From an uncultured Candidatus Saccharibacteria bacterium (GTDB taxonomy: Bacteria; Patescibacteriota; Minisyncoccia; Phycocordibacterales; CSBR16-119), in NCBI GenBank assembly GCA_964652835.1, contig CAZZCB010000001.1, forward strand, positions 26,935-90,934: a stretch of DNA of 64,000 nucleotides, in the 5' to 3' direction. Under the pieces are notes generated by a model. It made no database searches. It saw only the letters and a program-made list of their open reading frames with translations, and was not told the DNA's origin. This document shows positions 557 through 49,188 of the stretch, piece by piece. The translations under genes and the position numbers were made by a program. Within the stretch, counting starts at the first letter, position 1. Every line of letters starts with the position of its first letter.

Positions 557-589
557 AATTTATATATTTAAATTTTAATTTATAATATT

Positions 590-904
590 TTAATTTGAGT
601 CTGGCGCTCTTGTTGCTTCATATGCTTGTTTTATCATTTCCTCTTCTGTTAGTATTTTTGGTTCTTGGTCTGGCGCTCTTGTTGCTTCATATGCTTGTTT
701 TATCATTTCCTCTTCTGTTAGTATTTTTGGTTCTTGGTCTGGCGCTCTTGTTGCTTCATATGCTTGTTTTATCATTTCTTTTGTTTCCTTGATTTCTTTA
801 AAATAGGCAGACAACCTAGAAACTACAAATATAAATAGAATAATTAAAATAAAAATTAGTATGTATTTATATTTTTTATTAGAGAAAATTGACTTAAGGT
901 TCAT
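590..904 (-). CDS. small membrane-anchored protein carrying 3 perfect 23-aa tandem repeats (EEMIKQAYEATRAPDQEPKILTE)
   Basis: ORF track. N-terminal TM segment. The repeats are encoded by the perfect 69-bp tandem DNA repeat. Confidence 0.5.
   Translation of the reverse strand: MNLKSIFSNKKYKYILIFILIILFIFVVSRLSAYFKEIKETKEMIKQAYEATRAPDQEPKILTEEEMIKQAYEATRAPDQEPKILTEEEMIKQAYEATRAPDSN
601..797. repeat. perfect 69-bp tandem repeat, about 2.8 copies, in-frame inside CDS 590..904
   Basis: ctggcgctcttgttgcttcatatgcttg... recurs at 601, 670 and 739 with no mismatches until the third copy diverges near 780. Confidence 0.9.
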
Positions 905-5599: not shown

Positions 5600-6106
5600 T
5601 CAGCATCGCAAGTAGCGCGGCATCGTCCAGGCAGGATGGCGCCGCAGCAGGGGCACCATCTGAGGCGCATGCTTTGCGACACCCACGAGGGGCAGGCCGG
5701 CGGCGGTCTTCTTGTTGTCCAGGCTGTAGCGGTCCTTCATGATCATGTTGTAGCACGATCGTTCGGGTTCCGTTGCGGCCAAGGGCAGCGCATTGCTCAC
5801 GGTCATCAGATCCAGGGCGGGGTTCAAGATGTAACGGTTGCCGTCCGTGTGATCGGATCGGTGCACGCCGGTCTCCTGGCCGTTGGCTTGCCCTGGGGCG
5901 GAATACATGATGTTGATGTCGATGTCGTTGCCCTGGTCCACCACCATGTCGGTGATGTCCTCGGCGGCCTGCTGGTCAGCGGTGATGCTCTTGATGAATT
6001 CATTATGGTCAGCCTTCGGCCCCGTATCGGGTGCCGCGAAGGCGGTCGGGCTGAACGCCACACAGGCGAACAGTCCCATGGAAAGGAACAATGCTTTCGT
6101 TTTCAT
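5600..6106 (-). CDS. secreted protein of unknown function, high-GC island (about 60% GC)
   Basis: Signal peptide [24 protein letters not shown]. Codon usage is strikingly GC-rich relative to neighbours. No Shine-Dalgarno. Confidence 0.6.
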
Positions 6107-32867: not shown

Positions 32868-33815
32868 TTATCTAATACTTTGTGAATTAATCCTTTTTAT
32901 AATCTCTTCTACCGACGGCGTGTGACTTGTCATTAAAATAGTATTTCTATCCAAGTAAATATATGAGAAAACCAAGGCTCCGTTTTCATCATACAGGTTT
33001 CTAGACTCCTTGTTGAAGGTTACCCCGCTTTGAAATGTTCTCAGGAAAATATCTCCGGCAAAAGATTTTGGATCAATTTTAAACAATCTAACAAGGTCGT
33101 TTACCATCGAAACTTCCCAGTCTTTCATCGCTGAGAAAGATTCATTAAAATCCTTAACCTTTAAAATAAGGAAGAGATTTCCCTTGTCTTCAACCTTATA
33201 AACACCAAGCATAAACTGACCTGTTAAATTATTTGTGACCGTTTCAGGAACATCTATACCGAGTTTACTAAATAGTACATTTACGTTTATCAAACTTTTT
33301 CCCACAGAAGTCTGATTGGTTATAAACATATTAGTTATCGTTTCGTTCTCAGCAAAATCTGCTTTTAGTGTATTGTGAATAGCAGTGAAAAAATTCCCTC
33401 TTGTTAGACTTGTTATATCTGTTTGTGTTTGGTTTTCAGAATAAATAAGACTAGGTGAACCGATAGGGGCGACAACAGAAACAGGATTATCTTTATTCAT
33501 TATTGTGTAAACAAAAATAAGAATACCCGCCACGATAAACATAACACCGAGCAGTATCACAATAAGATTTTTTGTACTTGTCGGATCTTTTGTTTCTTTA
33601 TAAGCCTTTCTTCTTTCTTGTTCGGCTAGGGCTATCTTTATAACAGAACCTTTTTCACGTCGCATAATTTCTGCAATATCAGCAGAATAAGTTCTGATAC
33701 CAATACCGACTTTTTTTGAATCAGTGTTTTCTTTTGAGAGAGGTGAAGGTCCCACAACTGCTGTGGTTTTTTCAAGCTCATTTTTTAAAACTTCCCTATC
33801 TTGATCTAAACTCAT
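32868..33815 (-). CDS. membrane-anchored hypothetical protein
   Basis: TM segment LIVILLGVMFIVAGILIFVYTIM. Confidence 0.45.
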   Translation of the reverse strand: MSLDQDREVLKNELEKTTAVVGPSPLSKENTDSKKVGIGIRTYSADIAEIMRREKGSVIKIALAEQERRKAYKETKDPTSTKNLIVILLGVMFIVAGILIFVYTIMNKDNPVSVVAPIGSPSLIYSENQTQTDITSLTRGNFFTAIHNTLKADFAENETITNMFITNQTSVGKSLINVNVLFSKLGIDVPETVTNNLTGQFMLGVYKVEDKGNLFLILKVKDFNESFSAMKDWEVSMVNDLVRLFKIDPKSFAGDIFLRTFQSGVTFNKESRNLYDENGALVFSYIYLDRNTILMTSHTPSVEEIIKRINSQSIR

Positions 33816-33855
33816 GAAAATATTTTACCACGCTTTAGAAAAAACGAAATGAAAA

Positions 33856-33879
33856 AGGCCCGCACAAGTACGGGCCTTC
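33856..33879 (-). terminator. terminator of the OMP island gene
   Basis: aaggcccgcacaagtacgggcctt hairpin; T-run on minus strand. Confidence 0.65.
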
Positions 33880-33895: not shown

Positions 33896-34594
33896 TTAGA
33901 AGTTTACGGCTGCTTGGAAAGCAAGCGCTTGGCGACGGTAGTCGCCGAGACCCTGACTTTCCAGCAAATTGTTCATCGCCTGATCCCAGGCATAGGTTAC
34001 GCCGAGTGAGTAACGCTCACAGGTGAAGTAACTGATCTGTGCATACTGACCCTGGGCAATGGAAGATATTCCAATACGACCTTCGAAGCTCTTGAATCGA
34101 GCTCCAACATGTTGGTCATAGAAGATACCTCGACCACCAACCTCAGCGTGCACGCCGGCGAACATCGACAGGTTGTCATCGCAGGAGCGGAATTCCGCAC
34201 GAGCGATGATCGTTCCACCGATAGCTCCGTGACCACGGTACTGGAAGGTTGGCCCAACAGCAAACTCGATAAGACGATGATTGCCTTGGACTCGACCTTT
34301 CACAAGCGGGCTCACAGAGCTCACTGCGGTATTGTACCGCGAGTAGTTCTGGGCACTGCCTCCAACGAAGAAGCTTTCCTTCTTACTCAGCGAGAAGAAG
34401 GCTTCTCCACCAATATGGTGGAACTGGTTGCCCAGCTCCGGAGTGGAAACCTCCCCGAAATCCGGGATGGTGTAGTCGCCCATCAACACGGACGCTTGTC
34501 CGTGATAGGACTGGGCGTTAACAACGCCAACACACACAGAGGTCACCAGCATGATAACCAGAGCGATGAGGTGAAAATTGATCTTGTTTTTCAT
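33896..34594 (-). CDS. outer-membrane-type beta-barrel protein (OmpA/OmpW-like), high-GC island
   Basis: Start set at the internal Met of ORF 33896..34711. Signal peptide MKNKINFHLIALVIMLVTSVCVGVVNAQ. Alternating hydrophobic beta-strand pattern. Aromatic-rich C-terminus ending in Phe (…AFQAAVNF). About 55% GC. No SD. Confidence 0.55.
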   Translation of the reverse strand: MKNKINFHLIALVIMLVTSVCVGVVNAQSYHGQASVLMGDYTIPDFGEVSTPELGNQFHHIGGEAFFSLSKKESFFVGGSAQNYSRYNTAVSSVSPLVKGRVQGNHRLIEFAVGPTFQYRGHGAIGGTIIARAEFRSCDDNLSMFAGVHAEVGGRGIFYDQHVGARFKSFEGRIGISSIAQGQYAQISYFTCERYSLGVTYAWDQAMNNLLESQGLGDYRRQALAFQAAVNF

Positions 34595-34654
34595 GGGAAA
34601 GGGCTGTGTTTTACCTGGTTTTACGCAGGTTGGTTGGTTTCTAGGTTCTTGTAT

Positions 34655-34683
34655 ATAATAGCATAAATAGATTATTTTGTCAA
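34655..34683 (-). promoter_or_regulatory. sigma70-type promoter (TTGACA-17-TGcTATTAT) for the OMP gene
   Basis: Minus strand reads acTTGACAaaataatctatttatgcTATTAT. Confidence 0.6.
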
Positions 34684-34735
34684 GTATATTTAGACAAGGA
34701 AAAAGGCCCATCTACATTGCGTAAACGGGCCTTCG

Positions 34736-34808
34736 TGCTGGGGGCAGGACTCGAACCTGCGACCTTGTGCTTGTGATACACATGCTCTACCATCTGAGCT
34801 ACCCCTGC
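34736..34808 (-). tRNA. tRNA-Val (anticodon CAC)
   Basis: Minus-strand sequence GCAGGGGTAGCTCAGATGGTAGAGCATGTGTATCACAAGCACAAGGTCGCAGGTTCGAGTCCTGCCCCCAGCA. D-arm GCTC/GAGC. Anticodon loop AUCACAA. T-arm GCAGG-TTCGAGT-CCTGC. 7-bp acceptor stem with one A-A mismatch. CCA not encoded. Confidence 0.8.
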
Positions 34809-34883
34809 ATTTATCTCTGAACCCCTAAGGGCTTGATGGTCTTAAAAGAACTTACCTGGAATATATTACTCAGGTATAAAAAA

Positions 34884-34914
34884 TTGTCAACGTAAAAGCC
34901 CGGCGCCTCTGGCG
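34884..34914 (-). terminator. terminator after pnp
   Basis: aaaagcccggcgcctctggcgccgggctttt hairpin. Confidence 0.7.
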
Positions 34915-34957: not shown

Positions 34958-37084
34958 CTACCCTTTCGGATTCTTCACGAAATCCTTATCAGCTTCTTTA
35001 ATAGAAAGTCCTAATTTACCCATTTCATTTTTGATAATTTTAACTGGAACTATTTGTCCAAGCTTTAGAACTTCTTCTACTTTCTCCACCCGGAAAGGCG
35101 CTATTTCAGAAATGTGAATCATCCCCTCTTGTCCGTTCATCATTTTTGCAAAAGCTCCAAAATCTTTTATTCCGCTAATCTCAGCACTTGAAGTATCTCC
35201 AACTTTCCATTCGTAAGTCATATTTTCGATTATCTTTTTCGCTTCGTCAGCTCCACCATCTTTTCCTGTGATAAACACAGTTCCGTCATCCTCTATCGTG
35301 ATCTCTGTTTTTGTTTTGTCTCTGATTTCGTTTATTGTTTTTCCTCCAGAACCTATTACCATTCCGATTTTATCTGGAGATATTTTTGTCACTACTATTT
35401 TCGGCGCAAAAGGTGAAATATCTTTTCTAGGTTCTGCAATAGCTTCTTTAATAGTTTGAATAATTTTATTTCTAGCAGACAAACTTTGTGTCATAGCTTC
35501 TGATAGAATTTTCCGAGAAACTCCATCTACTTTTACATCGAGTTGTATTGCAGTCAGTCCGTTTTCTGTTCCAGCAACTTTAAAATCCATATCTCCGTAG
35601 TGATCTTCTGGGCCTTGAATATCTGTTAGGATTTTATAATTATTTTCATCTTTATACATCAGACCCATAGCAATACCTGCTACGGGAGCTTTGATCGGCA
35701 CACCACCGTCCATCAGCGCAAGAGACGATGCGCAGATAGAAGCTTGAGAAGTCGAACCGTTTGAAGCCATCGCCTCAGAAACAAGTCTTATCGTATACGG
35801 GAATTCTAGCTTGCTCGGCAGAACCACTTCCAAGGCTTTTTCAGCTAAAGCTCCGTGACCAACCTCTCTTCTGTTGACAAACCCAGCTCTGCCCATCTCT
35901 CCAACAGAAAAAGGTGGGAAGTTGTAGTGGTGCATAAACTGTTTGTTTTCTTCGTTCTCCATACCGTCTATAAGCTGAGCGTCTTCTGGTCCACCGAGCG
36001 TTAGCGCTGTGAAAATATGAGTTTCTCCTCGGTAGAAGATACCAGAGCCGTGAAGAACTTTTGAAAATCCTCCGGCCTGAGCGTAGAGTCCGCGCACCTC
36101 ATCCATCGCACGTCCATCCGCTCTGACATTGTTTTCTACGGCCTCTTTATGGAGAAGTGCGTCGAGCTGACCTTCAAAAAAATCTAGCTCTTTTTTAAAG
36201 CCAGCACTCTCTGGGAAATTTGTCTTGAGTAATTCTTTCCAAACCTTTTTTAGGCTTTCCATTTTTTCTTTTCCAGGGACTCCTGTCACTGCGTGATCTT
36301 TTAAAACAGGTCTTATTTTTTCTTCAAACAAAGAGAGGGCCTCGTTAGATATTTTTTCTTCTTCTAAAACTTTCTTTTCTTTACCGATTTCTTTTCGGAT
36401 TTCATTTTGCCAGTTTTCAAGTTTTTTAATTTCTACTTCTGCTTTTCCTAGAGCATCAGCGATAATATTTTCTGGGATTTGGTAAGCCACAGCTTCTATC
36501 ATATTTATCTTGTCTTCTTTTCCGCAAACAATAAGATCGTATTCAAAACCTTCTCCTCTGCTTTTCAGTGATGGATTAAAAATAGATTCACCGTTTCTCT
36601 CTATTAAACGCACTGCACCGATTGGACCAGCCCAAGGTATCTCAGAAGTATGAAGAGCTAGTGAAGCTCCATTCACCGCCAATATTCCTGGATCAATAGA
36701 TTCGTCCATTGCGAGCACTGTCGCAATAATCTGCACACCGTATTCCATTTGCTGGTTAAAAAGAGGGCGAAGAGTTCTGTCGATAACTCTTCCCGCGAGA
36801 ACAGCTTCATCTGTCGGCTTACCTTCTCTTTTCATAAAACGTCCGCCGCCGATTTTTCCTGACGCGTAGAACTTTTCGATATAGTCTACTGTTAAGTTAA
36901 ACCAGTCGGTCTGACTTTTTTCTTTTGACATCACGGCTGTAACGAGAACTCTCGTTTCGCCACAAGACATAATCACAGAGTTTGCTTGATCTACTAAATC
37001 AGAAAAAATAGCTGTTACCTCTTTTCCTCCTACTTCTAAAGTATATTTCTTTTCTTTCATTTTAATTTCCTGCCAATCTGGCAA
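34958..37084 (-). CDS. pnp: polyribonucleotide nucleotidyltransferase (PNPase)
   Basis: 708 aa; two RNase PH domains, KH and C-terminal S1 domain. Confidence 0.92.
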   Translation of the reverse strand: MPDWQEIKMKEKKYTLEVGGKEVTAIFSDLVDQANSVIMSCGETRVLVTAVMSKEKSQTDWFNLTVDYIEKFYASGKIGGGRFMKREGKPTDEAVLAGRVIDRTLRPLFNQQMEYGVQIIATVLAMDESIDPGILAVNGASLALHTSEIPWAGPIGAVRLIERNGESIFNPSLKSRGEGFEYDLIVCGKEDKINMIEAVAYQIPENIIADALGKAEVEIKKLENWQNEIRKEIGKEKKVLEEEKISNEALSLFEEKIRPVLKDHAVTGVPGKEKMESLKKVWKELLKTNFPESAGFKKELDFFEGQLDALLHKEAVENNVRADGRAMDEVRGLYAQAGGFSKVLHGSGIFYRGETHIFTALTLGGPEDAQLIDGMENEENKQFMHHYNFPPFSVGEMGRAGFVNRREVGHGALAEKALEVVLPSKLEFPYTIRLVSEAMASNGSTSQASICASSLALMDGGVPIKAPVAGIAMGLMYKDENNYKILTDIQGPEDHYGDMDFKVAGTENGLTAIQLDVKVDGVSRKILSEAMTQSLSARNKIIQTIKEAIAEPRKDISPFAPKIVVTKISPDKIGMVIGSGGKTINEIRDKTKTEITIEDDGTVFITGKDGGADEAKKIIENMTYEWKVGDTSSAEISGIKDFGAFAKMMNGQEGMIHISEIAPFRVEKVEEVLKLGQIVPVKIIKNEMGKLGLSIKEADKDFVKNPKG

Positions 37085-38996: not shown

Positions 38997-40913
38997 TTAG
39001 CGACGCTTGGGTCCACTGCTGGAACCACCGCTTTGCATCGCATTGCGAGCAGGTGCGGAATTGGTCCGCATTTGCTGCCGAGCAGGTTGCGACGGCCTGA
39101 CTGCCACTGGCTTAGTAGCCACTCGGGTGTTACCGCTAACAGTACGCACCTGATGATGTGTCCGAGAAGGACTAGCAGAAGGTCGCACACCTCCAGTGTT
39201 TCGGCTGACAGTTCCACCGTTCCGTGAAGGAGTGGTGTTACCGTAAACTTGACCCCGGTTTCCGTTCGCTCGAGGCTGTTTAGGAGGATTAACGCTCGGC
39301 TTCGTACCATAACCTGAAGGCTTGGTAGTCTGAGCAGTAGATCCACCATTCACACGCCCTTGGGGAGCGGTTTGCGGCTTTGCGGCAGGCTTAGTGCTTA
39401 CACCGGATGAACCTTGACGGTTCTCGGCGAAAGTTTCAGACGTGCCGCGTCCATTGGCACCAGCTGGTGCCTGCAGACCACCCCTGGGAGCCATAGGCTC
39501 TTTGCTGGGAGGAGCAGCTACCATATCCGGGGTTGAAGGAGGAAGCTTGATCGTGGGTTTGTTACCCTCGACAACCTTTCTATCAGCCACCGAACCGGTA
39601 GGGATGGAAGAAGGCAGAACCAAGGCTGGGACTTTACGCTCCGTCGTTACCGACGTTGCGAGTCCAACTTTAGTTTGACCTTCAGCCGAAGCTTTGGTCG
39701 ACTGAGTGAATGAGGTGGAGTTTCCGCCAAGCTCTGCCGAAGCAAGCTCAACATACTCCTCTTCAACGTTTCCTCCTGAGGTTACGGCAGATTTGCATCC
39801 GCCACAGCCGTCGTTGTAAACGTCCCCGTAGTAATTGTTGCTGACTGTGTAGCCAACACCACTACCAACCCAGTCGATCCCGACATGGCTGTAGCCATTC
39901 CACACAGAGGAACCACCGCTTACCCAACGATTAGGCATACAGCCGTAATAAGGAATGGATGGCATACAGCCGAAACCGTTACCAAATCCACCGCCGAAGC
40001 CGAAACCAACAGAGAAGCCTCCGCCGAAGCCACCTATTCCCCAGTTGTTACCGAAGCCTCCACCCCACATTGGTTGTGAGTAAAAGGGTTGCAACATCAC
40101 GGGATAGCCGTAGGCACCAGCACTACCGAGTGGCGCGCCGTTGCTGGCGTGCCGGTAGTAGTTCTGGCTATATCCAGCATAGTCTCCCATGCCGAACTTA
40201 TAACCATTGCGCTTGTTCGAAGCGGTAGGCTCCCACTCACCCTCAGCGTTCTTGCTGAAGATGAATGTCGGGTCCTTTTTGCGGTCACCGGCTTTGATAG
40301 CCTTAGGCGCATCAGGATCTTCGGTCTCCCACTTGTCTCCGTTCTTCTGATAGAAACGGTCTTCATGGAAGAACGACTTACCTTCCTCGACCCACTCGAT
40401 GTTGGCAACTTTCGTCGCGTCATCGCTGGTCTCGGAAAACCCTTTCTTTGCTTCAGCCAGAACATCTGGCATTTGCCCAGAAGGGGTGTACACTTTGATG
40501 ATCCGGCTCGTAGATCCCTCGTAAAGGGGTACTAAGAATTTCGGATCATCCACATCCACACCCAAACTGGGTGGAATGTAGAAAGGTACGGACAAGTCCG
40601 ACACCCACACAGAAAGCGTGGTATCAATGAGACGGTATTCGTTGGCGCCGTCCAAGAGGATGAAGTCACCCTCAAGATTCACAGGCTTAACGTGGCTCGG
40701 ATATCCGAACAGGACATCTTCCCACATCTCATCGTTCAGCATCTCCGGGGAGATACCTCCGGGAACCACCGAATTGGTGGCCTCCCATCCACTTGAGGCC
40801 AAAACGACCTCCTTTACAGCCTTCACCCACTCTTGCGAATGAGCGGAGGTTTGCGCGAGCAATGGCTGAGCCATTGCGCACACGAAGAGAATGACAAAGA
40901 TCAGATTTTTCAT
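38997..40913 (-). CDS. secreted Gly-rich protein (GFGGG/GNxW repeats, basic S/T/P-rich tail), high-GC island (about 60% GC)
   Basis: Signal peptide MKNLIFVILFVCAMAQPLLAQ. Central WGGGFGNNWGIGGFGGGFSVGFGFGGGFGNGFGC block. No SD. Confidence 0.6.
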   Translation of the reverse strand: MKNLIFVILFVCAMAQPLLAQTSAHSQEWVKAVKEVVLASSGWEATNSVVPGGISPEMLNDEMWEDVLFGYPSHVKPVNLEGDFILLDGANEYRLIDTTLSVWVSDLSVPFYIPPSLGVDVDDPKFLVPLYEGSTSRIIKVYTPSGQMPDVLAEAKKGFSETSDDATKVANIEWVEEGKSFFHEDRFYQKNGDKWETEDPDAPKAIKAGDRKKDPTFIFSKNAEGEWEPTASNKRNGYKFGMGDYAGYSQNYYRHASNGAPLGSAGAYGYPVMLQPFYSQPMWGGGFGNNWGIGGFGGGFSVGFGFGGGFGNGFGCMPSIPYYGCMPNRWVSGGSSVWNGYSHVGIDWVGSGVGYTVSNNYYGDVYNDGCGGCKSAVTSGGNVEEEYVELASAELGGNSTSFTQSTKASAEGQTKVGLATSVTTERKVPALVLPSSIPTGSVADRKVVEGNKPTIKLPPSTPDMVAAPPSKEPMAPRGGLQAPAGANGRGTSETFAENRQGSSGVSTKPAAKPQTAPQGRVNGGSTAQTTKPSGYGTKPSVNPPKQPRANGNRGQVYGNTTPSRNGGTVSRNTGGVRPSASPSRTHHQVRTVSGNTRVATKPVAVRPSQPARQQMRTNSAPARNAMQSGGSSSGPKRR

Positions 40914-44225: not shown

Positions 44226-44585
44226 ATGAAAACTTTTAAAGACTTAATTGTATGGCAGAAATCAATGGATCTTGTAAGGCTTGTTTATAAAACAACAAAA
44301 TCATTTCCTGCTGAAGAAAAATTTTCATTAACTAGTCAAATTCAAAGATCTGCAATATCGATACCTTCGAATATTGCAGAAGGAAAATTACGTAGGACAA
44401 ACAAAAATTTTATTCAGTTTTTATATATTTCTCTCGGCTCTTGTGCCGAACTAGAAACACAGATTATAGTCGCCAAAGATATCGGATATATAGAACCTGA
44501 TGATTTTGAAAAAATACAGACCGATATAAACGAGATTATGAAAATGATTACTGGATTAATTAAAAAACTAATGCCTAGCGCCTAA
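44226..44585 (+). CDS. four-helix-bundle protein (23S rRNA intervening-sequence protein family)
   Basis: LIVWQKSMDLV...IPSNIAEG...LYISLGSCAELETQ family pattern. Confidence 0.65.
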   Translation: MKTFKDLIVWQKSMDLVRLVYKTTKSFPAEEKFSLTSQIQRSAISIPSNIAEGKLRRTNKNFIQFLYISLGSCAELETQIIVAKDIGYIEPDDFEKIQTDINEIMKMITGLIKKLMPSA

Positions 44586-44603: not shown

Positions 44604-45125
44604 ATGGGATCATCACATAAAAAACAAGGAAAAATTGCTGACAACAATGCGAAAAAATCTCAAGTTTTTTCTAAACTTGTCAGACTTATACAAGCAGAAT
44701 CTAAAAAATCAGGAGGTGATCAAAACTCTCCAGGTCTTCGTGTTGCTATCGAACGAGCAAGGAAAGAAAATATGCCAAGCGACACTCTCGAAAGAGCTAT
44801 TAAAAAAGGTTCTGAACCGGGGGTTGATTTACAGCCTGTTTTATTCGAGGCTTACGGCCCAGCGGGAATAGGAATTATCATCACTGGGCTTACAGACAAC
44901 AACAATAGAACGAGTCAGGCAGTAAAACATATTCTTTCAAAAAACGGATCATCTCTTGGGGGCGCCGGATCTGTGGCTTGGAATTTTTCTAAAAATGCCG
45001 AAGGCGAGTGGACTCCAAATACTACAATGAGCGCAAGTGAAGAAGATTTAGAAAAACTTTCTATCATCATAGAAGCTCTTGAAGAAAACGAAGACATCCA
45101 AGATGTTTATACAAATGCAGAATAA
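44604..45125 (+). CDS. YebC/PmpR-family protein, shortened (173 aa, lacks middle domain)
   Basis: KSGGDQNSPGLRVAIERARKENMPSDTLERAIKKG and C-terminal EDIQDVYTN match YebC. About 70 residues shorter than canonical YebC. Confidence 0.65.
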   Translation: MGSSHKKQGKIADNNAKKSQVFSKLVRLIQAESKKSGGDQNSPGLRVAIERARKENMPSDTLERAIKKGSEPGVDLQPVLFEAYGPAGIGIIITGLTDNNNRTSQAVKHILSKNGSSLGGAGSVAWNFSKNAEGEWTPNTTMSASEEDLEKLSIIIEALEENEDIQDVYTNAE

Positions 45126-45792: not shown

Positions 45793-45868
45793 GTTTGCGG
45801 GGGTTGGTTGGTTTTTGTTTAAGGAACAGTGGCTAAATATAAACATATATTTAGCTATTAGTCAATAC

Positions 45869-45916
45869 TTCCACTCTTTGAAAACTCGAGCGAACTCAAG
45901 TCCTCAAAAGTGGAGC
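45869..45916. repeat. 48-bp palindromic intergenic element, copy 1 (CCACTCTTTGAAAA-N19-TCAAAAGTGGAG)
   Basis: Direct comparison with copies at 46632 and 47851. Confidence 0.8.
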
Positions 45917-46619: not shown

Positions 46620-46631
46620 ATATTTAAGTTA

Positions 46632-46679
46632 TTCCAATCTTTGAAAAATCAAATTTCTTTAATTTCTCAAAATTGGAGC
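46632..46679. repeat. 48-bp palindromic intergenic element, copy 2 (CCAATCTTTGAAAA-N19-TCAAAATTGGAG), fused to a GC hairpin 46673-46697
   Basis: Compensatory CCACT-to-CCAAT and AGTGG-to-ATTGG changes relative to copy 1. Confidence 0.8.
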
Positions 46680-46723: not shown

Positions 46724-47776
46724 CTACGAATCGTAGTGCCAAGCAGCGTCGAACACGGGTATCAAGAAATGTTTGCCAGACATCTTGTGCATCCGCGCCA
46801 ATTTCACAGCAACCGCAAACCCAGCCCTTCCTGTGCGACCAAACTCCGACAACGCTTCGTGGTGAAAGTCGTCCCACTTCACAACCCACTCACTTTTATC
46901 TGCCGGCTTAAAGCCAACAGATTCAATGAAGAGTTGATCTACGTAGTCGCTTGTCACCAATCCAACACCGTCGAGTAGTGGTATTGCCACATCAAGTGCG
47001 GGCATGGAAAAGGTGGTGTGAGAAGGTGATGATCCGGGTAAGTCATGTCGCAAAAACATGTCTGGGTTGATTCCAAAAATCCTTTCGTACTTCCCAGGAG
47101 GATAGTATTTGCGGTGAGCATTGCCAGATGCCACAGATTCAAACCCGAACACTTTCGATTGGGGAAAGAGTGACTTGAACCCGGTTGCCATGGGAAGTGC
47201 CGTGGTGCCATTACCCAAAGGGCAAATGACCACATCCGGTCGAATACCGGCTTCGACGACTTCTTCGACGAAGGGACGGAACGCATTAGTCGCAGCGTTG
47301 TTAATCGAAATTCCTCTCCCGAATATGTCACCCATCGCGTGGTTGATATATTTAGTTTCGGGATGTTTAGCAAGAAAAGCCTTGATAAACTCTGGGAATC
47401 CGTTCACGTACGCTTCGGCTGGCGTGAGGATAAGCTCCCCGCCAGCTTCTTCGATCGCCCGCTCACGAGCCTTCTCACCACCAGCAGGCACTGCGATCTT
47501 GATATTGTAACCAAGAGCAGTGGCAACTGCGGCTGCGGCACGTCCGCCACTGCCCGAAGTGGTTTCCAGAAGCGTGTCACCTGGCTTGATGAGGCCGAGG
47601 CACTCTTTCAAGTAGATGAGCTTCAGGAACACTCGGGAATAGTGGCACTCACCGTACGGCAACTTGTAGTCAAGTTTGAAGTGGTAAGTGTTACCCTCAA
47701 ACTCAATGGTTTCGATTGGCGAATTGCGGACTTCAGACATCATGCGTGTGTAGAGGTTTTTGCGCTGAGTGTTCAT
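46724..47776 (-). CDS. cysteine-synthase-like (PLP fold-type II) protein lacking the Schiff-base lysine, paralog 1
   Basis: Aligns along its length to CysK (TSGSGGRAAAAVATALGY, GEKARERAIE, LGNGTT). The SVKxR lysine motif is replaced by ECHYSR. About 52% GC. Confidence 0.7.
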   Translation of the reverse strand: MNTQRKNLYTRMMSEVRNSPIETIEFEGNTYHFKLDYKLPYGECHYSRVFLKLIYLKECLGLIKPGDTLLETTSGSGGRAAAAVATALGYNIKIAVPAGGEKARERAIEEAGGELILTPAEAYVNGFPEFIKAFLAKHPETKYINHAMGDIFGRGISINNAATNAFRPFVEEVVEAGIRPDVVICPLGNGTTALPMATGFKSLFPQSKVFGFESVASGNAHRKYYPPGKYERIFGINPDMFLRHDLPGSSPSHTTFSMPALDVAIPLLDGVGLVTSDYVDQLFIESVGFKPADKSEWVVKWDDFHHEALSEFGRTGRAGFAVAVKLARMHKMSGKHFLIPVFDAAWHYDS

Positions 47777-47790
47777 GATGGTTTATGTTA

Positions 47791-47809
47791 TGTGTTAGGC
47801 CTAAACACA
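47791..47809 (-). promoter_or_regulatory. 19-nt palindrome TGTGTTTAGGCCTAACACA, 14 nt upstream of the paralog-1 ATG
   Basis: Identical element with identical spacing upstream of paralog 2. Confidence 0.6.
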
Positions 47810-47850
47810 CAACATAAATTAATTTATATTTTTAAAAGAACTAAATATAT

Positions 47851-47897
47851 CTCCACTCTTTGAAAATTCCACCGAGGTGAAATTCTCAAAAGTAGAG
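47851..47897. repeat. palindromic intergenic element, copy 3 (CCACTCTTTGAAAA-N19-TCAAAAGTAGAG)
   Basis: The G-to-A change in the right arm gives a G-U wobble only if the element is transcribed from the minus strand. Confidence 0.8.
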
Positions 47898-48002
47898 ACA
47901 AGACCTTAGCCTTGTCTACTTTGGGTTGTTCGTCTCACGACGATCTTCAGTTTTAGGGGACCTTAGCTCCCTAACCAGAGGTTAGTCTGTCTGTGACTTT
48001 GA

Positions 48003-49103
48003 CTAGCTTTGTTTGGTTTTTTCCGTCTGCTCCCACCAGCTGTCGTAGCGGTTCGCGTGATCGTAGGCGACTATCAGGTAGTTTTGACCCTCGGTTTCCC
48101 GTGCCAAATTTTCTGCCACCTTATAGCCAGCCCAGGTCGTTCGACCGAAGGTCTTGAGCTCATTTGGGATGCCGGTGTCGAACACTATGGCATCTTTTGG
48201 GGGCTCTTGACCCGTGATCTCGGTGTACTCCCTGAGAGTGCTTGAATCCCAGACCAACTTCTCTGCTGCGAGAAGTGGCAAGGAAGCCTCCAGAGCGGGC
48301 ACATCGAAATGCACTCGGTAGCTCGTACCTGGCAACCTATGCCTTGAGAACTCTCCGCGTTGCGACAGGTTCATCCCGAACTCTTCTTCGAAGCGTCCAG
48401 GATAAAGTTTGTCGTACACGAAACCACTCTCAAAACTTTCGGCTCCAACGATCTTGACCGAAGGACACAACTCCTTGATCCTGCGACCATATCCGTTCTG
48501 GGTTGTCCCATTACCGGATATTGCCACAAAGACATCAGGGGTCACGTTCTCCATGTCGCGCAACGCTTCGTCTACCACGTTGGCACAGGCGGCCATCGCC
48601 TCTTCGTTCACCATGGGCACTTTCCCTTCCAGGACCATGCTGTGGTTAAAGAAGAAACAATCCCTATTTTTCGCAAGGAACTTCCTTGAGAAAACGGGTG
48701 CGCCGTCAACGTAAGCCAGAGAGTCAGTGAGGTGCAGTTGGTGTGAAGGAATCCACTCCAAGATTGCACGCTCACGAGCTTTTTCACCATCGGCAGGCAT
48801 CGCAACCTCGCACACATACCCGAGTTGGGCAGCGAGCGAAGCCATTGCGATGCCAGCGCTTCCACTGGTGAAATCGTAGACTCTTTGACCCGGCTTGATC
48901 AAACCCTTCTCTTCGAAGTGCTTGAACAAAGCCAAGTAGATACGGACATAGTGGTTGAAACCAGGAGCATTTTCACACTCGAGCTTCACAAACAACTTGT
49001 TCCCGTTGGGGAGCACGTTATTCATTTCCACTAATCGCGTGTTAGAGGTTTTCACCTCGAGGCGAGAGTAGAGTTGGGCGCGCTGAGTGTTCATGGGGTT
49101 CAT
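48003..49103 (-). CDS. cysteine-synthase-like protein lacking the Schiff-base lysine, paralog 2
   Basis: Same fold (TSGSAGIAMASLAAQLGY, GEKARERAILE, SGNGTT). SVKxR replaced by FNHYVR. Start set at ATG 49103 (MNPMNTQR). The ORF track starts at an upstream GTG (49136) inside the leader palindrome. Confidence 0.7.
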   Translation of the reverse strand: MNPMNTQRAQLYSRLEVKTSNTRLVEMNNVLPNGNKLFVKLECENAPGFNHYVRIYLALFKHFEEKGLIKPGQRVYDFTSGSAGIAMASLAAQLGYVCEVAMPADGEKARERAILEWIPSHQLHLTDSLAYVDGAPVFSRKFLAKNRDCFFFNHSMVLEGKVPMVNEEAMAACANVVDEALRDMENVTPDVFVAISGNGTTQNGYGRRIKELCPSVKIVGAESFESGFVYDKLYPGRFEEEFGMNLSQRGEFSRHRLPGTSYRVHFDVPALEASLPLLAAEKLVWDSSTLREYTEITGQEPPKDAIVFDTGIPNELKTFGRTTWAGYKVAENLARETEGQNYLIVAYDHANRYDSWWEQTEKTKQS

Positions 49104-49116
49104 GGGGTTAGGGTTA

Positions 49117-49135
49117 TGTGTTAGGCCTAAACACA
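49117..49135 (-). promoter_or_regulatory. 19-nt palindrome TGTGTTTAGGCCTAACACA, 14 nt upstream of the paralog-2 ATG
   Basis: See 47791..47809. Confidence 0.6.
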
Positions 49136-49188
49136 CAACCGAAACCTTTTCTGAAACTGAATCTTTTCGATGAACAACTTTCTGGACA

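What the first reader, a model, noticed from the sequence alone, without database searches (positions are those of the whole stretch)
33896..34808. Gram-negative-type beta-barrel outer-membrane protein next to tRNA-Val in an otherwise monoderm-looking genome
The 233-aa protein has a signal peptide, amphipathic beta-strand periodicity and the OMP-typical aromatic C-terminus ending in Phe (…AFQAAVNF). This is the hallmark of proteins inserted by the BAM machinery. The rest of the window looks monoderm: PrgI-type T4SS, LysM/M23, YidC short form, and no BAM/Lpt genes. The gene sits in a 55% GC island directly abutting a tRNA-Val gene, a classic integration hotspot. Either it is a foreign gene that cannot function as an OMP here (and may be repurposed), or the organism has an unsuspected outer membrane.
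Basis: partly seen in the sequence, partly recalled or inferred. Interest (0 to 1): 0.6.

Follow-up and report, generated by a model that had tools for sequence, protein, structure and literature searches.

The report
Outer-membrane-type barrel protein in CPR bacterium
A tiny, probably single-membraned symbiotic (CPR) bacterium encodes an exported protein predicted to fold like a Gram-negative outer-membrane channel; the gene belongs to this lineage rather than being a recent import, is swapped between strains like a cassette, and may act in a host cell's membrane.

Summary
Window 33896-34597(-) is a real 233-aa gene under purifying selection (dN/dS 0.09-0.18). It has a Sec signal peptide and its own near-consensus promoter and terminator. 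AlphaFold (pLDDT 86) predicts a 12-stranded membrane-type beta-barrel, closest to KdgM-type porins and OMPLA, with a C-terminal Phe.

The genome is CPR/Patescibacteria: PNPase is 83-92% identical to Paceibacterota/Saccharibacteria MAGs. The window holds a Gram-positive-type T4SS and no BAM/Lpt genes.

The "recent foreign island at a tRNA" reading is not supported:
- The family has about 15 members in billions of proteins, all on contigs that look like this clade. Nearly all sit in the same pnp-X-n315-dksA slot, with or without a tRNA.
- Every ortholog, even at 30% identity, keeps GC3 0.55-0.73 against neighbours at 0.23-0.33.

The slot is nevertheless a recombination hotspot:
- A near-identical strain (flanks 95-98%, dS 0.14-0.36) carries a 67%-identical allele (dS 1.8).
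- Other relatives carry a different secreted protein behind the same promoter and signal peptide, or only tRNAs.

The best inference is a small channel or anchor acting in a membrane other than the producer's, probably the host's outer membrane. This is untested. The stable GC-rich codon class is unexplained.

The parts
33896..34597 (-). Gene X: CDS of 233 aa plus stop, a new sequence family predicted to form a 12-stranded membrane-type beta-barrel
   Evidence: ORF and translation. 13 homologs with in-frame indels. dN/dS 0.09-0.18. AF2 pLDDT 86.2, pTM 0.75. Top 50 listed Foldseek PDB hits are essentially all OM barrels or engineered porin derivatives.
34517..34597 (-). Sec signal peptide (aa 1-27). 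It has a KNK n-region, a hydrophobic core and a V-N-A|Q signal peptidase I site. There is no conserved lipobox Cys.
   Evidence: Read from the sequence. The A/V-x-A/G|Q motif is conserved while the h-region varies. AF2 models it as a helix. The same signal peptide is used by the alternative cassette in L013/L011.
34421..34483 (-). Most conserved motif of the family, GDYxIPGFGEVSTPELGNQFH: end of strand 1, the long loop L1 and the start of strand 2
   Evidence: Invariant or near-invariant columns. Mean entropy 0.38. 90% nt identity between W and L018, against about 60% in the rest of the gene.
33899..33988 (-). Loop L6 with a short helix (WDxAMNxLLExQGLG), then the last strand ending in hydrophobic residues at -9, -7, -5, -3 and a terminal Phe (beta-signal-like)
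   Evidence: AF2 secondary structure H205-213, E222-231. Alignment. Terminal F in 13 of 14 members, I in P0013.
34655..34683 (-). Own sigma-70-type promoter, TTGACA-17-TATTAT with a TG extended -10 (11 of 12 matches)
   Evidence: Conserved upstream of X and of the alternative cassette in 7 loci.
34598..34654 (-). 5' UTR with a small conserved hairpin (about 34613-34630). No obvious Shine-Dalgarno sequence.
   Evidence: Five pairs, three of them with a compensatory change. This is weak evidence.
33846..33879 (-). Intrinsic terminator of X. Its two arms are repeated in the terminator behind the tRNA.
   Evidence: The homologous terminator precedes n315 in all loci, including those without X.
34702..34734 (-). 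Intrinsic terminator behind tRNA-Val, a direct-repeat partner of the X terminator (12/12 and 13/14 nt arms)
34735..34808 (-). tRNA-Val(CAC), a separate and independently variable module of the same intergenic hotspot. It has its own promoter at 34863-34890.
   Evidence: Relatives carry other tRNAs, or none, at this position.
34958..37084 (-). pnp (polynucleotide phosphorylase), the conserved left border of the slot
32868..33815 (-). n315, a conserved single-pass membrane protein that forms the right border of the slot. It is present with or without X.

Best explanation
Gene X is a genuine protein-coding gene. It forms a self-contained expression cassette, with a strong sigma-70 promoter, a short 5' UTR, a Sec signal peptide, a mature domain of about 205 aa and an intrinsic terminator.

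What is shown or strongly predicted:
- After export and cleavage at VNA|QS, the mature chain is predicted to fold into a 12-stranded antiparallel beta-barrel of the transmembrane kind.
- The barrel has a variable hydrophobic outer face and a conserved polar, charged lumen. Turns are very short.
- Two long conserved loops, L1 and L6, lie at one mouth. Conservation is highest around the N- and C-terminal strands (b1, b11, b12 and loop L1), which by inference close the barrel. The C-terminus ends in Phe.
- The nearest structural analogs are small monomeric 12-stranded channels (KdgM/NanC type) and OMPLA.
- The family is endemic to a narrow clade of CPR/Patescibacteria.
- It sits in a fixed slot between pnp and a conserved membrane-protein gene (n315). 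The promoter, 5' UTR and signal peptide on one side and the terminator on the other stay conserved across loci, so they could serve as recombination anchors (inferred).
- Whole alleles are exchanged between lineages, replaced by an unrelated secreted protein, or lost.

What is inferred:
- The producer belongs to a lineage without an outer membrane or BAM. The barrel therefore most likely works in a membrane that is not a conventional outer membrane of its own.
- My preferred mechanism is insertion into the outer membrane of the host cell at the epibiont-host contact. There it would act as a small solute channel or a membrane anchor for a nutritionally dependent symbiont.
- Presence/absence and allele turnover would then reflect host or strain specificity.

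Rough confidences: real exported membrane-type barrel, about 0.85. Lineage-endemic cassette exchanged by recombination rather than a recent Gram-negative import, about 0.85. Acts in the host membrane, about 0.3.
For: Coding and selection:
- 13 homologs keep the frame, and all indels are in frame.
- dN/dS is 0.09-0.18 in five pairs.

Fold:
- AF2 with 14 sequences gives pLDDT 86.2 and pTM 0.75. All five models score 84.5-86.2, with 12 strands of 8-16 residues.
- Foldseek against the PDB gives 107 hits at E<=1e-3. The top 50 listed are essentially all OM beta-barrels (porins, OMPLA, autotransporter barrels) or engineered porin derivatives.
- The best size-matched hits are the KdgM-type porin VhGalP 8xua (TM 0.53/0.57) and OMPLA 1fw3 (0.49/0.46).
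- The top BFVD hits are phage-encoded OMP-like barrels.

Membrane character:
- The hydrophobic strand face has mean Kyte-Doolittle hydropathy +1.38, 2 of 71 residues charged and column entropy 1.63.
- The polar face has mean hydropathy -1.05, 14 of 69 residues charged and column entropy 1.09.
- Variable hydrophobics on one face and conserved polars on the other is the reverse of what a soluble barrel shows.

Lineage:
- PNPase is 83-92% identical to MAGs named Ca. Paceibacterota or Saccharibacteria.
- The window has a Gram-positive-type T4SS, LysM/M23, PBP1a and a short YidC, and no BAM/Lpt.
- CPR are regarded as having lost the outer membrane (PMC10160955; PMC12102498).

Endemic family and synteny:
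- 9 homologs in 5.8e9 proteins and 4 more distant ones in 1.84e9 representatives.
- None in GTDB species representatives or IMG/VR.
- The pnp-X-n315-dksA synteny holds down to 30% identity.

Cassette behaviour:
- W vs L018: pnp, n315 and dksA are 97-100% identical in protein with dS 0.14-0.36, but X is 67% identical with dS 1.8. Nucleotide identity drops exactly between the start codon and the terminator.
- W vs L020: n315 is 60.7% identical but X is 76.3%.
- L011 and L013 carry a different 136-137-aa secreted protein behind the same promoter, signal peptide and terminator.
- L009, L010 and L015 have no cassette.
Against: - No experiment exists, and the fold is a prediction from a shallow alignment. 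A single-sequence AF2 run gave pLDDT 42.
- I could not inspect model coordinates. Barrel closure and the position of L1 and L6 are therefore inferred from the strand count and the fold hits.
- Strand faces were assigned by hydrophobicity, so part of the hydrophobic contrast arises by construction.
- Host insertion has no direct support. The host is unknown, and so is whether it is diderm.
- A Sec-exported protein would reach the outside of a host outer membrane, whereas BAM works from the periplasm. Insertion would have to be spontaneous or use an unknown route.
- The long loops are conserved rather than hypervariable, which is not what classic surface-exposed arms-race proteins show.
- The whole genome could not be searched for bamA, lptD or similar genes.
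- The family is rare and absent from several close relatives, so it is not essential to the lifestyle.
Confidence: 0.45

Rival explanations
1. X is a recently acquired Gram-negative OMP gene that integrated next to tRNA-Val as a genomic island. It is non-functional or repurposed in a monoderm.
For: - Codon usage is strongly atypical: no AGA among 12 Arg codons against 58% in the background, CTG 43% against 7%, and GC3 0.59 against about 0.28.
- The gene lies next to a tRNA.
- It is absent from several close relatives.
- Its terminator arms occur as direct repeats on both sides.
Against: - No homolog exists outside the clade in about 5.8e9 and 1.84e9 proteins.
- The slot is the same in orthologs at 30-76% identity, and in L004 and L017 it holds no tRNA.
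- GC3 of 0.55-0.73 is kept in all orthologs although dS is saturated.
- Purifying selection acts on the gene.
- No integrase is adjacent in the window, and the repeat is not tRNA sequence.
- Another GC-rich gene of the same codon class (38997-40913) is vertically inherited, with dS 0.16, the same as its flanks.
Confidence: 0.05
2. The organism, or this clade of CPR, has an unrecognised outer lipid layer of its own, and X is one of its porins or structural barrels.
For: - X carries the full set of OMP hallmarks, including a C-terminal Phe with hydrophobic residues at -3, -5, -7 and -9.
- Its strong consensus promoter suggests an abundant protein.
- The cell envelopes of most CPR have never been imaged (PMC8871954).
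Against: - No BAM, Lpt, Lol, Tol or OmpA-type hit was found in the 64-kb window. A crude signal-peptide plus C-terminal-aromatic screen found no other OMP-like ORF in about 300 kb of related loci.
- The T4SS is of the monoderm type (PMC12102498).
- X is missing from close relatives (L009-L011, L015) and is replaced by an unrelated small protein in L011 and L013. That is unlikely for a core envelope component.
- There is a single copy per locus set, and the family is tiny.
Confidence: 0.15
3. X stays on the producer, either in the outer face of its own cytoplasmic membrane or in its wall or S-layer. It is a strain-variable surface component, for example a phage or host-recognition determinant, whose alleles are kept diverse by frequency-dependent selection.
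For: - Old, divergent alleles sit in near-identical backgrounds, together with presence/absence and cassette replacement. This pattern is typical of surface and receptor loci.
- A signal peptide is present.
- The slot lies beside a conserved single-pass membrane protein.
Against: - No single-chain OMP-like barrel is known to reside in a cytoplasmic membrane (my knowledge), and an open barrel there would be toxic.
- Variability is concentrated in the lipid-facing residues of strands 3-7 and in the signal peptide, not in exposed loops, which are short or conserved.
Confidence: 0.2
4. X is a soluble secreted beta-rich protein, such as a binding protein or a toxin precursor that oligomerises. In this reading the AlphaFold barrel is misleading.
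For: - The alignment is shallow, with 14 sequences.
- The single-sequence model is poor.
- Foldseek TM-scores are moderate, at most 0.57.
Against: - Five concordant models score pLDDT 84.5-86.2.
- Only 2 charged residues occur among 71 positions on the hydrophobic face.
- The hydrophobic face is the variable one and the polar face the conserved one.
- The even strand count, mature size of about 205 aa and terminal Phe fit small OMPs.
- The top 50 listed structural neighbours are essentially all membrane barrels.
Confidence: 0.1
5. The GC-rich stretch is not a protein gene but a structured RNA or another non-coding element beside the tRNA.
For: - It is a GC-rich block in an AT-rich genome next to a tRNA.
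- A long antisense ORF is present at 34109-34666.
Against: - Rfam finds only the tRNA.
- dN/dS is far below 1 with saturated dS.
- All indels are in frame.
- The promoter, signal peptide and terminator architecture is that of a protein gene.
Confidence: 0.01

Closest known systems
KdgM/NanC family of small monomeric 12-stranded outer-membrane channels (e.g. VhGalP, PDB 8xua)
   Same: - The mature size is similar: about 205 aa against 210.
- Both have 12 antiparallel strands, short turns and a signal peptide.
- It is the best size-matched structural hit, with TM 0.53/0.57.
   Different: - No sequence similarity was found. No Pfam hit appeared even at E<=5-10 for any of the 14 members, and a profile search of PDB sequences found nothing.
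- Identity in the structural alignment is about 10%.
- The host lineage is CPR, not a diderm.
- Two long conserved loops, L1 and L6, are specific to this family.
OMPLA (outer-membrane phospholipase A, PDB 1fw3) and other 12-stranded OM barrels (NalP/EstA autotransporter translocators)
   Same: The predicted fold is a 12-stranded membrane barrel. TM is 0.49/0.46 to OMPLA, and NalP and EstA also appear among the hits.
   Different: - I could not identify a Ser-His-Asn triad on adjacent outward-facing positions. The invariant H59 and S93 lie on different strands and faces.
- There is no passenger domain.
- No sequence match was found.
Polymorphic porin or surface-protein loci exchanged by homologous recombination (for example Neisseria porB, enterobacterial ompC/ompA alleles; from my knowledge)
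   Same: - Old, divergent alleles sit in a conserved chromosomal slot.
- Breakpoints fall at the gene borders.
- The gene tree is incongruent with the flanks.
   Different: - The exposed loops are the conserved parts and the membrane-facing strands the variable ones.
- The slot can also hold an unrelated secreted protein that shares the promoter and signal peptide, or nothing at all.
- The organism is not known to have an outer membrane.
tRNA-linked genomic islands
   Same: - The gene lies next to a tRNA.
- Its composition is atypical.
- It is present in some relatives and absent in others.
- Short flanking direct repeats are present.
   Different: - There is no integrase.
- The repeats are terminator arms, not the tRNA 3' end.
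- The cassette also occurs without any tRNA.
- The atypical composition is evolutionarily stable.
Phage-encoded OMP-like barrels (BFVD hits, 'uncultured Caudovirales phage' proteins)
   Same: Small signal-peptide barrels of similar size, with TM up to 0.48/0.55.
   Different: - No PHROGs match.
- No relative in IMG/VR contigs.
- No phage genes flank the slot in the window; L018 carries one extra unannotated 169-aa ORF there.

Membership tests
Classical BAM-assembled outer-membrane beta-barrel protein (OMP) | N-terminal Sec signal peptide cleaved by signal peptidase I | tested here: met
   n-region, h-region and an A/V-x-A/G|Q site are conserved in 14 members. This is a sequence reading; no dedicated predictor was available.
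Classical BAM-assembled outer-membrane beta-barrel protein (OMP) | Even number of antiparallel strands forming a closed barrel | tested here: met
   AF2 gives 12 strands at pLDDT 86, and all structural neighbours are closed OM barrels. This is a prediction only, and the coordinates were not inspected.
Classical BAM-assembled outer-membrane beta-barrel protein (OMP) | Lipid-facing hydrophobic belt with a polar lumen | tested here: met
   Hydrophobic face: KD +1.38, 2 of 71 charged. Polar face: KD -1.05, 14 of 69 charged. The hydrophobic face is the more variable one.
Classical BAM-assembled outer-membrane beta-barrel protein (OMP) | C-terminal beta-signal: terminal aromatic residue with hydrophobic residues at -3, -5, -7, -9 | tested here: met
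   The C-terminus reads ...L-x-F-x-A-x-V-x-F. The terminal residue is F in 13 of 14 members and I in one.
Classical BAM-assembled outer-membrane beta-barrel protein (OMP) | Producer has an outer membrane and an Omp85/BamA insertase | not testable with these tools
   None was found in the 64-kb window. The literature holds that CPR lack an outer membrane. The rest of the genome could not be retrieved.
KdgM/NanC porin family (Pfam KdgM) | Significant match to the family profile | tested here: not met
   No Pfam family matched at E<=10 for X, or at E<=5 for any of the 14 members apart from three isolated one-member noise hits.
KdgM/NanC porin family (Pfam KdgM) | 12-stranded monomeric barrel of about 210 aa | tested here: met
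   TM 0.53/0.57 to 8xua, with a 205-aa mature chain.
OMPLA | Ser-His-Asn catalytic triad on the barrel exterior | tested here: inconclusive
   Invariant H59, S93 and N208 exist, but they lie on non-adjacent strands and different faces by sequence parity. No 3D check was possible.
tRNA-integrated genomic island | Integrase gene at the island border | tested here: not met
   The only elements between pnp and n315 are the tRNA, X and their signals. In L001, L003 and L006 a tyrosine-recombinase gene lies 1.7-2.7 kb upstream of pnp, outside the slot.
tRNA-integrated genomic island | Direct repeat of the tRNA 3' end (attL/attR) flanking the island | tested here: not met
   The repeats are the two arms of the terminator (12/12 and 13/14 nt). 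They overlap the tRNA by at most its last 2 nt.
tRNA-integrated genomic island | Atypical composition caused by recent acquisition | tested here: not met
   The composition is atypical but is conserved across orthologs with saturated dS and 30-76% identity.
CPR/Patescibacteria genome (context) | Closest relatives of housekeeping genes are CPR MAGs | tested here: met
   PNPase is 74-92% identical to five MAGs titled Ca. Paceibacterota or Ca. Saccharibacteria, 54% to a sixth, and 40% to the one proteobacterial hit.

The most novel reading that the evidence does not exclude
A Patescibacterial epibiont without an outer membrane of its own exports a self-contained OMP-type barrel. The barrel inserts into the outer membrane of its host cell and acts there as a channel or anchor, making it a 'porin in trans'.

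The gene would belong to a small class of host-interaction genes in these genomes that share a stable GC-rich, AGA-free codon usage and are exchanged as cassettes between strains.

A still bolder variant is not excluded by anything here: that codon class reflects expression outside the producer, for example after T4SS-mediated transfer.
Probability: 0.2. Interest if true: 0.9.

Novelty: new variant of a known kind. Interest (0 to 1): 0.62.

Why it matters
CPR/Patescibacteria make up a large share of bacterial diversity and live as obligate epibionts, but how they tap their hosts is mostly unknown. They are generally taken to have lost the outer membrane.

A conserved, selected, exported protein with every hallmark of an outer-membrane barrel in such a lineage has two possible meanings. 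Either these cells have an envelope layer nobody has seen, or they make a membrane barrel for use in another cell's membrane. Either outcome would bear on how the outer membrane was lost and on the mechanism of episymbiosis.

The gene is small, self-contained and easy to synthesise, so the question can be tested directly by expression, refolding, bilayer conductance and localisation.

Two further observations may be general features of these genomes:
- a class of genes that keeps GC-rich codon usage for long periods in an AT-rich genome;
- a promoter-plus-signal-peptide slot that accepts alternative secreted proteins.

Tried and rejected
Searches that found nothing:
- Rfam over the whole window found only the tRNA, so the GC-rich block is not a known RNA.
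- Pfam, NCBIfam, PHROGs and PADLOC gave no hit for X. NCBIfam returned only noise beta-lactamase hits at 12-14 bits.
- A profile search of PDB sequences found nothing.
- A pattern scan of GTDB species representatives found no relative of X. IMG/VR found none. JGI metagenomes yielded one extra member, L019.
- An HMM of the family against all ORFs of the window and 18 loci found no paralog.
- A crude screen for a signal peptide plus a C-terminal aromatic residue found no other OMP-like ORF.
- A whole-window repeat search found no template/variable repeat pair of the kind expected for a diversity-generating retroelement, so that idea was dropped.

Technical limits:
- The single-sequence AlphaFold run was uninformative, with pLDDT 42.
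- A promoter-pattern search returned nothing because I mis-set the spacer by one base.

Ideas considered and rejected:
- Expression-linked codon bias as the cause of the high GC3. rpsO, tig, ppa and clpP all have GC3 of about 0.3 and use AGA.
- In-situ positive selection as the cause of the W/L018 divergence. dS is 1.8 against 0.14-0.36 in the flanks, and dN/dS is 0.14.
- A lipoprotein. The Cys in the signal peptide is not conserved.

Literature searches found no report of OMP-like barrels in Patescibacteria.
Full report
**1. What is at the coordinates**

Gene X is read from the ATG at 34597 to the stop at 33896 on the minus strand. It encodes 233 aa, starting MKNKINFHLIALVIMLVTSVCVGVVNA|QS and ending AFQAAVNF.

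The ORF tool lists a longer 271-aa version starting at 34711. That start lies inside the promoter and no homolog supports it; all homologs begin at MK.

Upstream lies tRNA-Val(CAC) at 34735-34808(-) (ARAGORN; Rfam 64.8 bits). The two genes are separate transcription units:
- The tRNA has its own promoter-like site (34863-34890) and terminator (34702-34734).
- X has a near-consensus promoter, TTGACA-17-TATTAT with an upstream TG (34655-34683, 11 of 12 matches).
- X has its own terminator at 33854-33879.

The CDS has GC 0.53 and GC3 0.59. Nine surrounding genes have GC3 0.24-0.34.

**2. It is a protein gene under purifying selection**

A search of 5.8 billion proteins found only nine homologs, at 50-99% identity. 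A profile search of 1.84 billion representatives added four distant ones, at 31-44% identity, plus two spurious repeat proteins.

All members have a signal peptide and keep the frame with in-frame indels. Nei-Gojobori estimates for five pairs give dN/dS of 0.09-0.18. Rfam finds no RNA family in the GC-rich block. The idea that this is a non-coding element is rejected.

**3. Fold**

X alone gave a useless model, with pLDDT 42. With the 14-sequence alignment, AlphaFold2 gave pLDDT 86.2 and pTM 0.75, and all five models scored 84.5-86.2. The model has:
- 12 consecutive antiparallel strands of 8-16 residues;
- very short turns;
- one long loop between strands 1 and 2 (L1);
- one loop with a 9-residue helix between strands 11 and 12 (L6).

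Foldseek against the PDB returned 107 hits at E<=1e-3. The top 50 listed are essentially all outer-membrane barrels or engineered porin derivatives. The best size-matched hits are the KdgM-type porin VhGalP (8xua, TM 0.53/0.57) and OMPLA (1fw3, 0.49/0.46). The best hits in the viral structure library are phage-encoded OMP-like barrels.

On the alignment, one face of the strands is hydrophobic: mean Kyte-Doolittle hydropathy +1.38, with only 2 of 71 positions charged. It is the more variable face (column entropy 1.63). The other face is polar: mean hydropathy -1.05, with 14 of 69 positions charged. It is the more conserved face (entropy 1.09).

Variable hydrophobics outside and conserved polars inside is the signature of a membrane barrel and the reverse of a soluble one. 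One caveat applies: the faces were assigned by hydrophobicity, so only the charge and conservation contrasts are independent evidence.

The C-terminus has hydrophobic residues at -3, -5, -7 and -9. The terminal residue is Phe in 13 of 14 members. There is no sequence similarity to any Pfam, NCBIfam, PHROGs or PADLOC family, or to PDB sequences. X is thus a new sequence family with a known fold.

**4. The organism**

The window's PNPase is 74-92% identical to five MAGs titled Candidatus Paceibacterota or Candidatus Saccharibacteria. It is 54% identical to a sixth Paceibacterota MAG and 40% to the only proteobacterial hit.

The window encodes the following:
- a monoderm-type type IV secretion system (PrgI, T4SS_pilin, a TraG/VirB4-like ATPase);
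- LysM+M23 and PG_binding proteins;
- PBP1a;
- PilB;
- a 245-aa YidC;
- dnaA and dnaN.

Nothing from the BAM, Lpt, Lol or OmpA families was found. The literature regards CPR as lacking, or having lost, the outer membrane (PMC10160955; PMC12102498). It also notes that few CPR envelopes have actually been imaged (PMC8871954).

I found no paper describing OMP-like barrels in Patescibacteria. I could not retrieve the rest of the genome, so the absence of BAM in this organism is inferred rather than shown.

**5. Not a recent foreign island**

Every homolog whose contig could be read sits in the same place, pnp - X - n315 (a single-pass membrane protein) - dksA-like - comM - LysM/M23 - giant protein. 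This includes the most divergent one, P0013 at about 30% identity (L017). The one exception is P0011. It lies in a GC-richer relative next to genes that elsewhere sit a few kb upstream of pnp (L016).

In L004 and L017 the pnp terminator is followed directly by the X promoter, with no tRNA. No integrase lies in the slot. The only flanking direct repeats are the two arms of the terminator, 12/12 and 13/14 nt.

High GC3 (0.55-0.73) and near-total avoidance of AGA/AGG are found in every ortholog, next to neighbours at GC3 0.23-0.33. This holds even though synonymous sites between orthologs are saturated. Recent import without amelioration therefore does not explain the composition.

**6. The slot is nevertheless a recombination hotspot**

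The clearest case is the window (W) against L018.

| Comparison | pnp | n315 | dksA | X |
|---|---|---|---|---|
| W vs L018, protein identity | 97.3% | 97.8% | 100% | 67% |
| W vs L018, dS | 0.23 | 0.14 | 0.36 | 1.8 (dN/dS 0.14) |
| W vs L020, protein identity | 85.6% | 60.7% | not compared | 76.3% |

Between W and L018, nucleotide identity falls from about 96% to about 60% exactly between the start codon and the terminator, then recovers at once. So W's allele is closer to that of a distant genome (L020) than to that of a near-identical one (L018). These are old alleles moved by recombination, not in-situ rapid evolution.

Close relatives with 83-92% identical PNPase differ in what fills the slot:
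- L009 and L010 have only tRNAs there, and L015 has neither a tRNA nor a cassette.
- L011 and L013 carry an unrelated 136-137-aa secreted protein. It is driven by the same promoter and extended -10 and begins with a homologous signal peptide. It ends at the homologous terminator.

The slot is therefore an expression-and-export socket (promoter, 5' UTR, signal peptide ... terminator) that accepts alternative mature domains.

The tRNA module upstream also varies:

| Locus | tRNA(s) in the slot |
|---|---|
| W | Val-CAC |
| L020 | Val-CAC plus one more tRNA-like gene |
| L018, L021 | Thr-TGT |
| L001, L003 | Ile-GAT |
| L010 | Thr-CGT plus Lys-TTT |
| L009 | Glu-TTC plus one more |
| L004, L017 | none |

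**7. Where the protein varies**

Within the ten closer members, the most conserved parts are strand 1, loop L1 (GDYxIPGFGEVSTPELGNQFH), strands 11 and 12, and loop L6. The signal peptide and the middle strands 3-7 vary most.

There are no long hypervariable loops. This argues against classical loop-based antigenic variation. It suggests that the two long loops and the terminal strands that would close the barrel carry the function or the assembly determinants.

**8. Mechanism**

Shown or strongly predicted:
- X is an autonomous, probably strongly transcribed gene.
- Its product is exported by Sec.
- The product folds as a 12-stranded membrane-type barrel of the size class of KdgM/NanC channels.

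Inferred: the producer belongs to a lineage without an outer membrane or BAM. A Sec-exported barrel can then reach only the outer face of its own cytoplasmic membrane, an undescribed outer layer, or the surface membrane of the cell it is attached to.

I favour insertion into the host's outer membrane as a small channel or anchor, at about 0.3. The reasons:
- CPR depend on their hosts for nutrients.
- The gene behaves like a strain-specific accessory host-interaction gene, with presence/absence, allele exchange and replacement by other secreted proteins.
- An open barrel in the producer's own energised membrane would be harmful.

The main weaknesses:
- The host is unknown.
- BAM acts from the periplasmic side, so insertion would need to be spontaneous or use an unknown route.

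The rivals are an unrecognised outer layer of its own (0.15), a producer-bound variable surface component (0.2), a soluble protein with a misleading prediction (0.1), and the recent Gram-negative import (0.05).

**9. The unexplained codon class**

X is not alone. Each of the following has GC3 0.54-0.80, uses CGN for about 65-100% of its Arg codons and prefers NNG over NNA:
- the alternative cassette in L011 and L013;
- a 638-aa secreted Gly/Phe-rich protein (38997-40913);
- a 168-aa signal-peptide protein between tig and clpP (5600-6106, minus strand);
- two PALP-family enzymes (46724-49136).

All 21 background genes score on the opposite side of a synonymous-usage index. rpsO, tig, ppa and clpP are ordinary, so this is not expression-linked bias.

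The 638-aa gene is vertically inherited between W and L018, with dS 0.16, the same as its flanks. It remains GC-rich in L004, where dS is saturated. The composition is therefore maintained over time. Possible causes are biased gene conversion at recombination-prone loci, repeated import from GC-richer relatives (L016 has 50% GC), or selection at the mRNA level. None was tested.

**10. Verdict**

- The explanation as a recent foreign island at a tRNA integration site is not supported.
- I rate it a new variant of a known kind: a new sequence family with the OMP barrel fold, in a lineage where that fold has no obvious home, and encoded in an exchangeable export cassette.
- Interest is 0.62. It would surprise a specialist in CPR biology or envelope evolution and is directly testable. 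At present it rests on prediction alone, and the family is rare.

Noticed in passing
window 34735-34808 and the same position in L001, L003, L006, L009, L010, L018, L020, L021: The tRNA gene(s) between pnp and the cassette differ between closely related genomes: Val-CAC, Thr-TGT, Ile-GAT, Thr-CGT plus Lys-TTT, Glu-TTC, or none. W and L018 have flanks 95-98% identical but carry Val-CAC and Thr-TGT respectively. tRNA genes appear to turn over in this hotspot independently of the cassette.
   Followed up: partly
L018:9765-9860; L001:9769-9864: L018 has a tRNA-like sequence sharing both halves of the window's tRNA-Val, but with an insertion of about 22 nt in the anticodon region and a degenerate acceptor stem. 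ARAGORN does not call it. L001 has a 96-nt 'tRNA-Ile(TAT)' call with an insertion at the same place. These may be intron-bearing or decaying tRNAs.
   Followed up: no
L013:1055-1465 and L011:8272-8685: An alternative occupant of the slot. It is a 136-137-aa secreted protein (ending ...YTLLVCKR/K) with no Pfam, PHROGs or PADLOC hit. It uses the same promoter, a homologous signal peptide and the same terminator as X, and is also GC-rich (GC3 0.54-0.55).
   Followed up: partly
window 5600-6106 (-), between tig and clpP: A 168-aa ORF with a clear signal peptide ([24 protein letters not shown]|AP). It has GC3 0.80 and the most deviant codon usage in the window, and no family hit. It looks like another GC-rich secreted-protein insertion between conserved housekeeping genes.
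   Followed up: partly
window 38997-40913 (-): A 638-aa secreted protein with a Gly/Phe/Asn-rich low-complexity middle and a Pro/Ser/Arg-rich tail. GC is 0.54 and there is no Pfam hit. It is syntenic in L004 and L018 next to pilB. It is vertically inherited yet persistently GC-rich.
   Followed up: partly
window 46724-47776 and 48003-49136 (-): Two paralogous PALP-family (PLP-dependent) enzymes with GC3 0.56-0.62 and codon usage that looks foreign. Each is preceded by a 39-nt palindromic repeat, at 47780-47818 and 49106-49144.
   Followed up: no
window 45865-45915, 46628-46678, 47847-47897: Three copies of a 51-nt element with an internal inverted repeat (CCACTCTTTGA...TCAAAAGTGGAG). Each lies just upstream of one of three consecutive minus-strand genes: a 219-aa unknown, an SDR and the first PALP gene. 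It could be a shared operator or leader, or a cassette boundary.
   Followed up: no
window 580-786: Three tandem copies of a 69-nt unit, 80-87% identical, near the left end of the window and overlapping a small ORF with a membrane segment.
   Followed up: no
L001:1586-2290, L001:2232-2624, L003:433-861, L003:1958-2362 (all minus strand): Four different GC-rich ORFs with no Pfam hit, in the variable region next to the CCA-adding enzyme gene. All end in -AA (…HGIAA, …RKIAA, …NKVAA, …ETLAA). The ending recalls ssrA-like C-terminal degradation tags, but it may be coincidence.
   Followed up: no
window 44604-45125 (YebC-like) and 38997-40913: The YebC/TACO1 homolog is short, at 173 aa. It shares the exact 9-residue string FSKNAEGEW with the 638-aa GC-rich secreted protein. 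This is an unexpected identity between unrelated proteins.
   Followed up: no
window 44226-44585 (+): A 119-aa ORF between ruvB and yebC. Its positional counterpart in L004 carries hits to 23S_rRNA_IVP and bAvd, the accessory protein family of diversity-generating retroelements. No reverse transcriptase or template/variable repeat pair was seen in the window.
   Followed up: partly
window 34613-34630 (5' UTR of X) and homologous positions in L001, L003, L004, L018, L020: A small 5-6-bp hairpin with a GTAAAA-type loop is conserved in the 5' UTR. Three of its pairs show a compensatory change. There is no recognisable Shine-Dalgarno sequence before the start codon.
   Followed up: partly
L018:9074-9583 (-): A strain-specific extra 169-aa ORF with no family hit is inserted between pnp and the tRNA in L018 only. 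This is another sign that the intergenic slot accumulates insertions.
   Followed up: no
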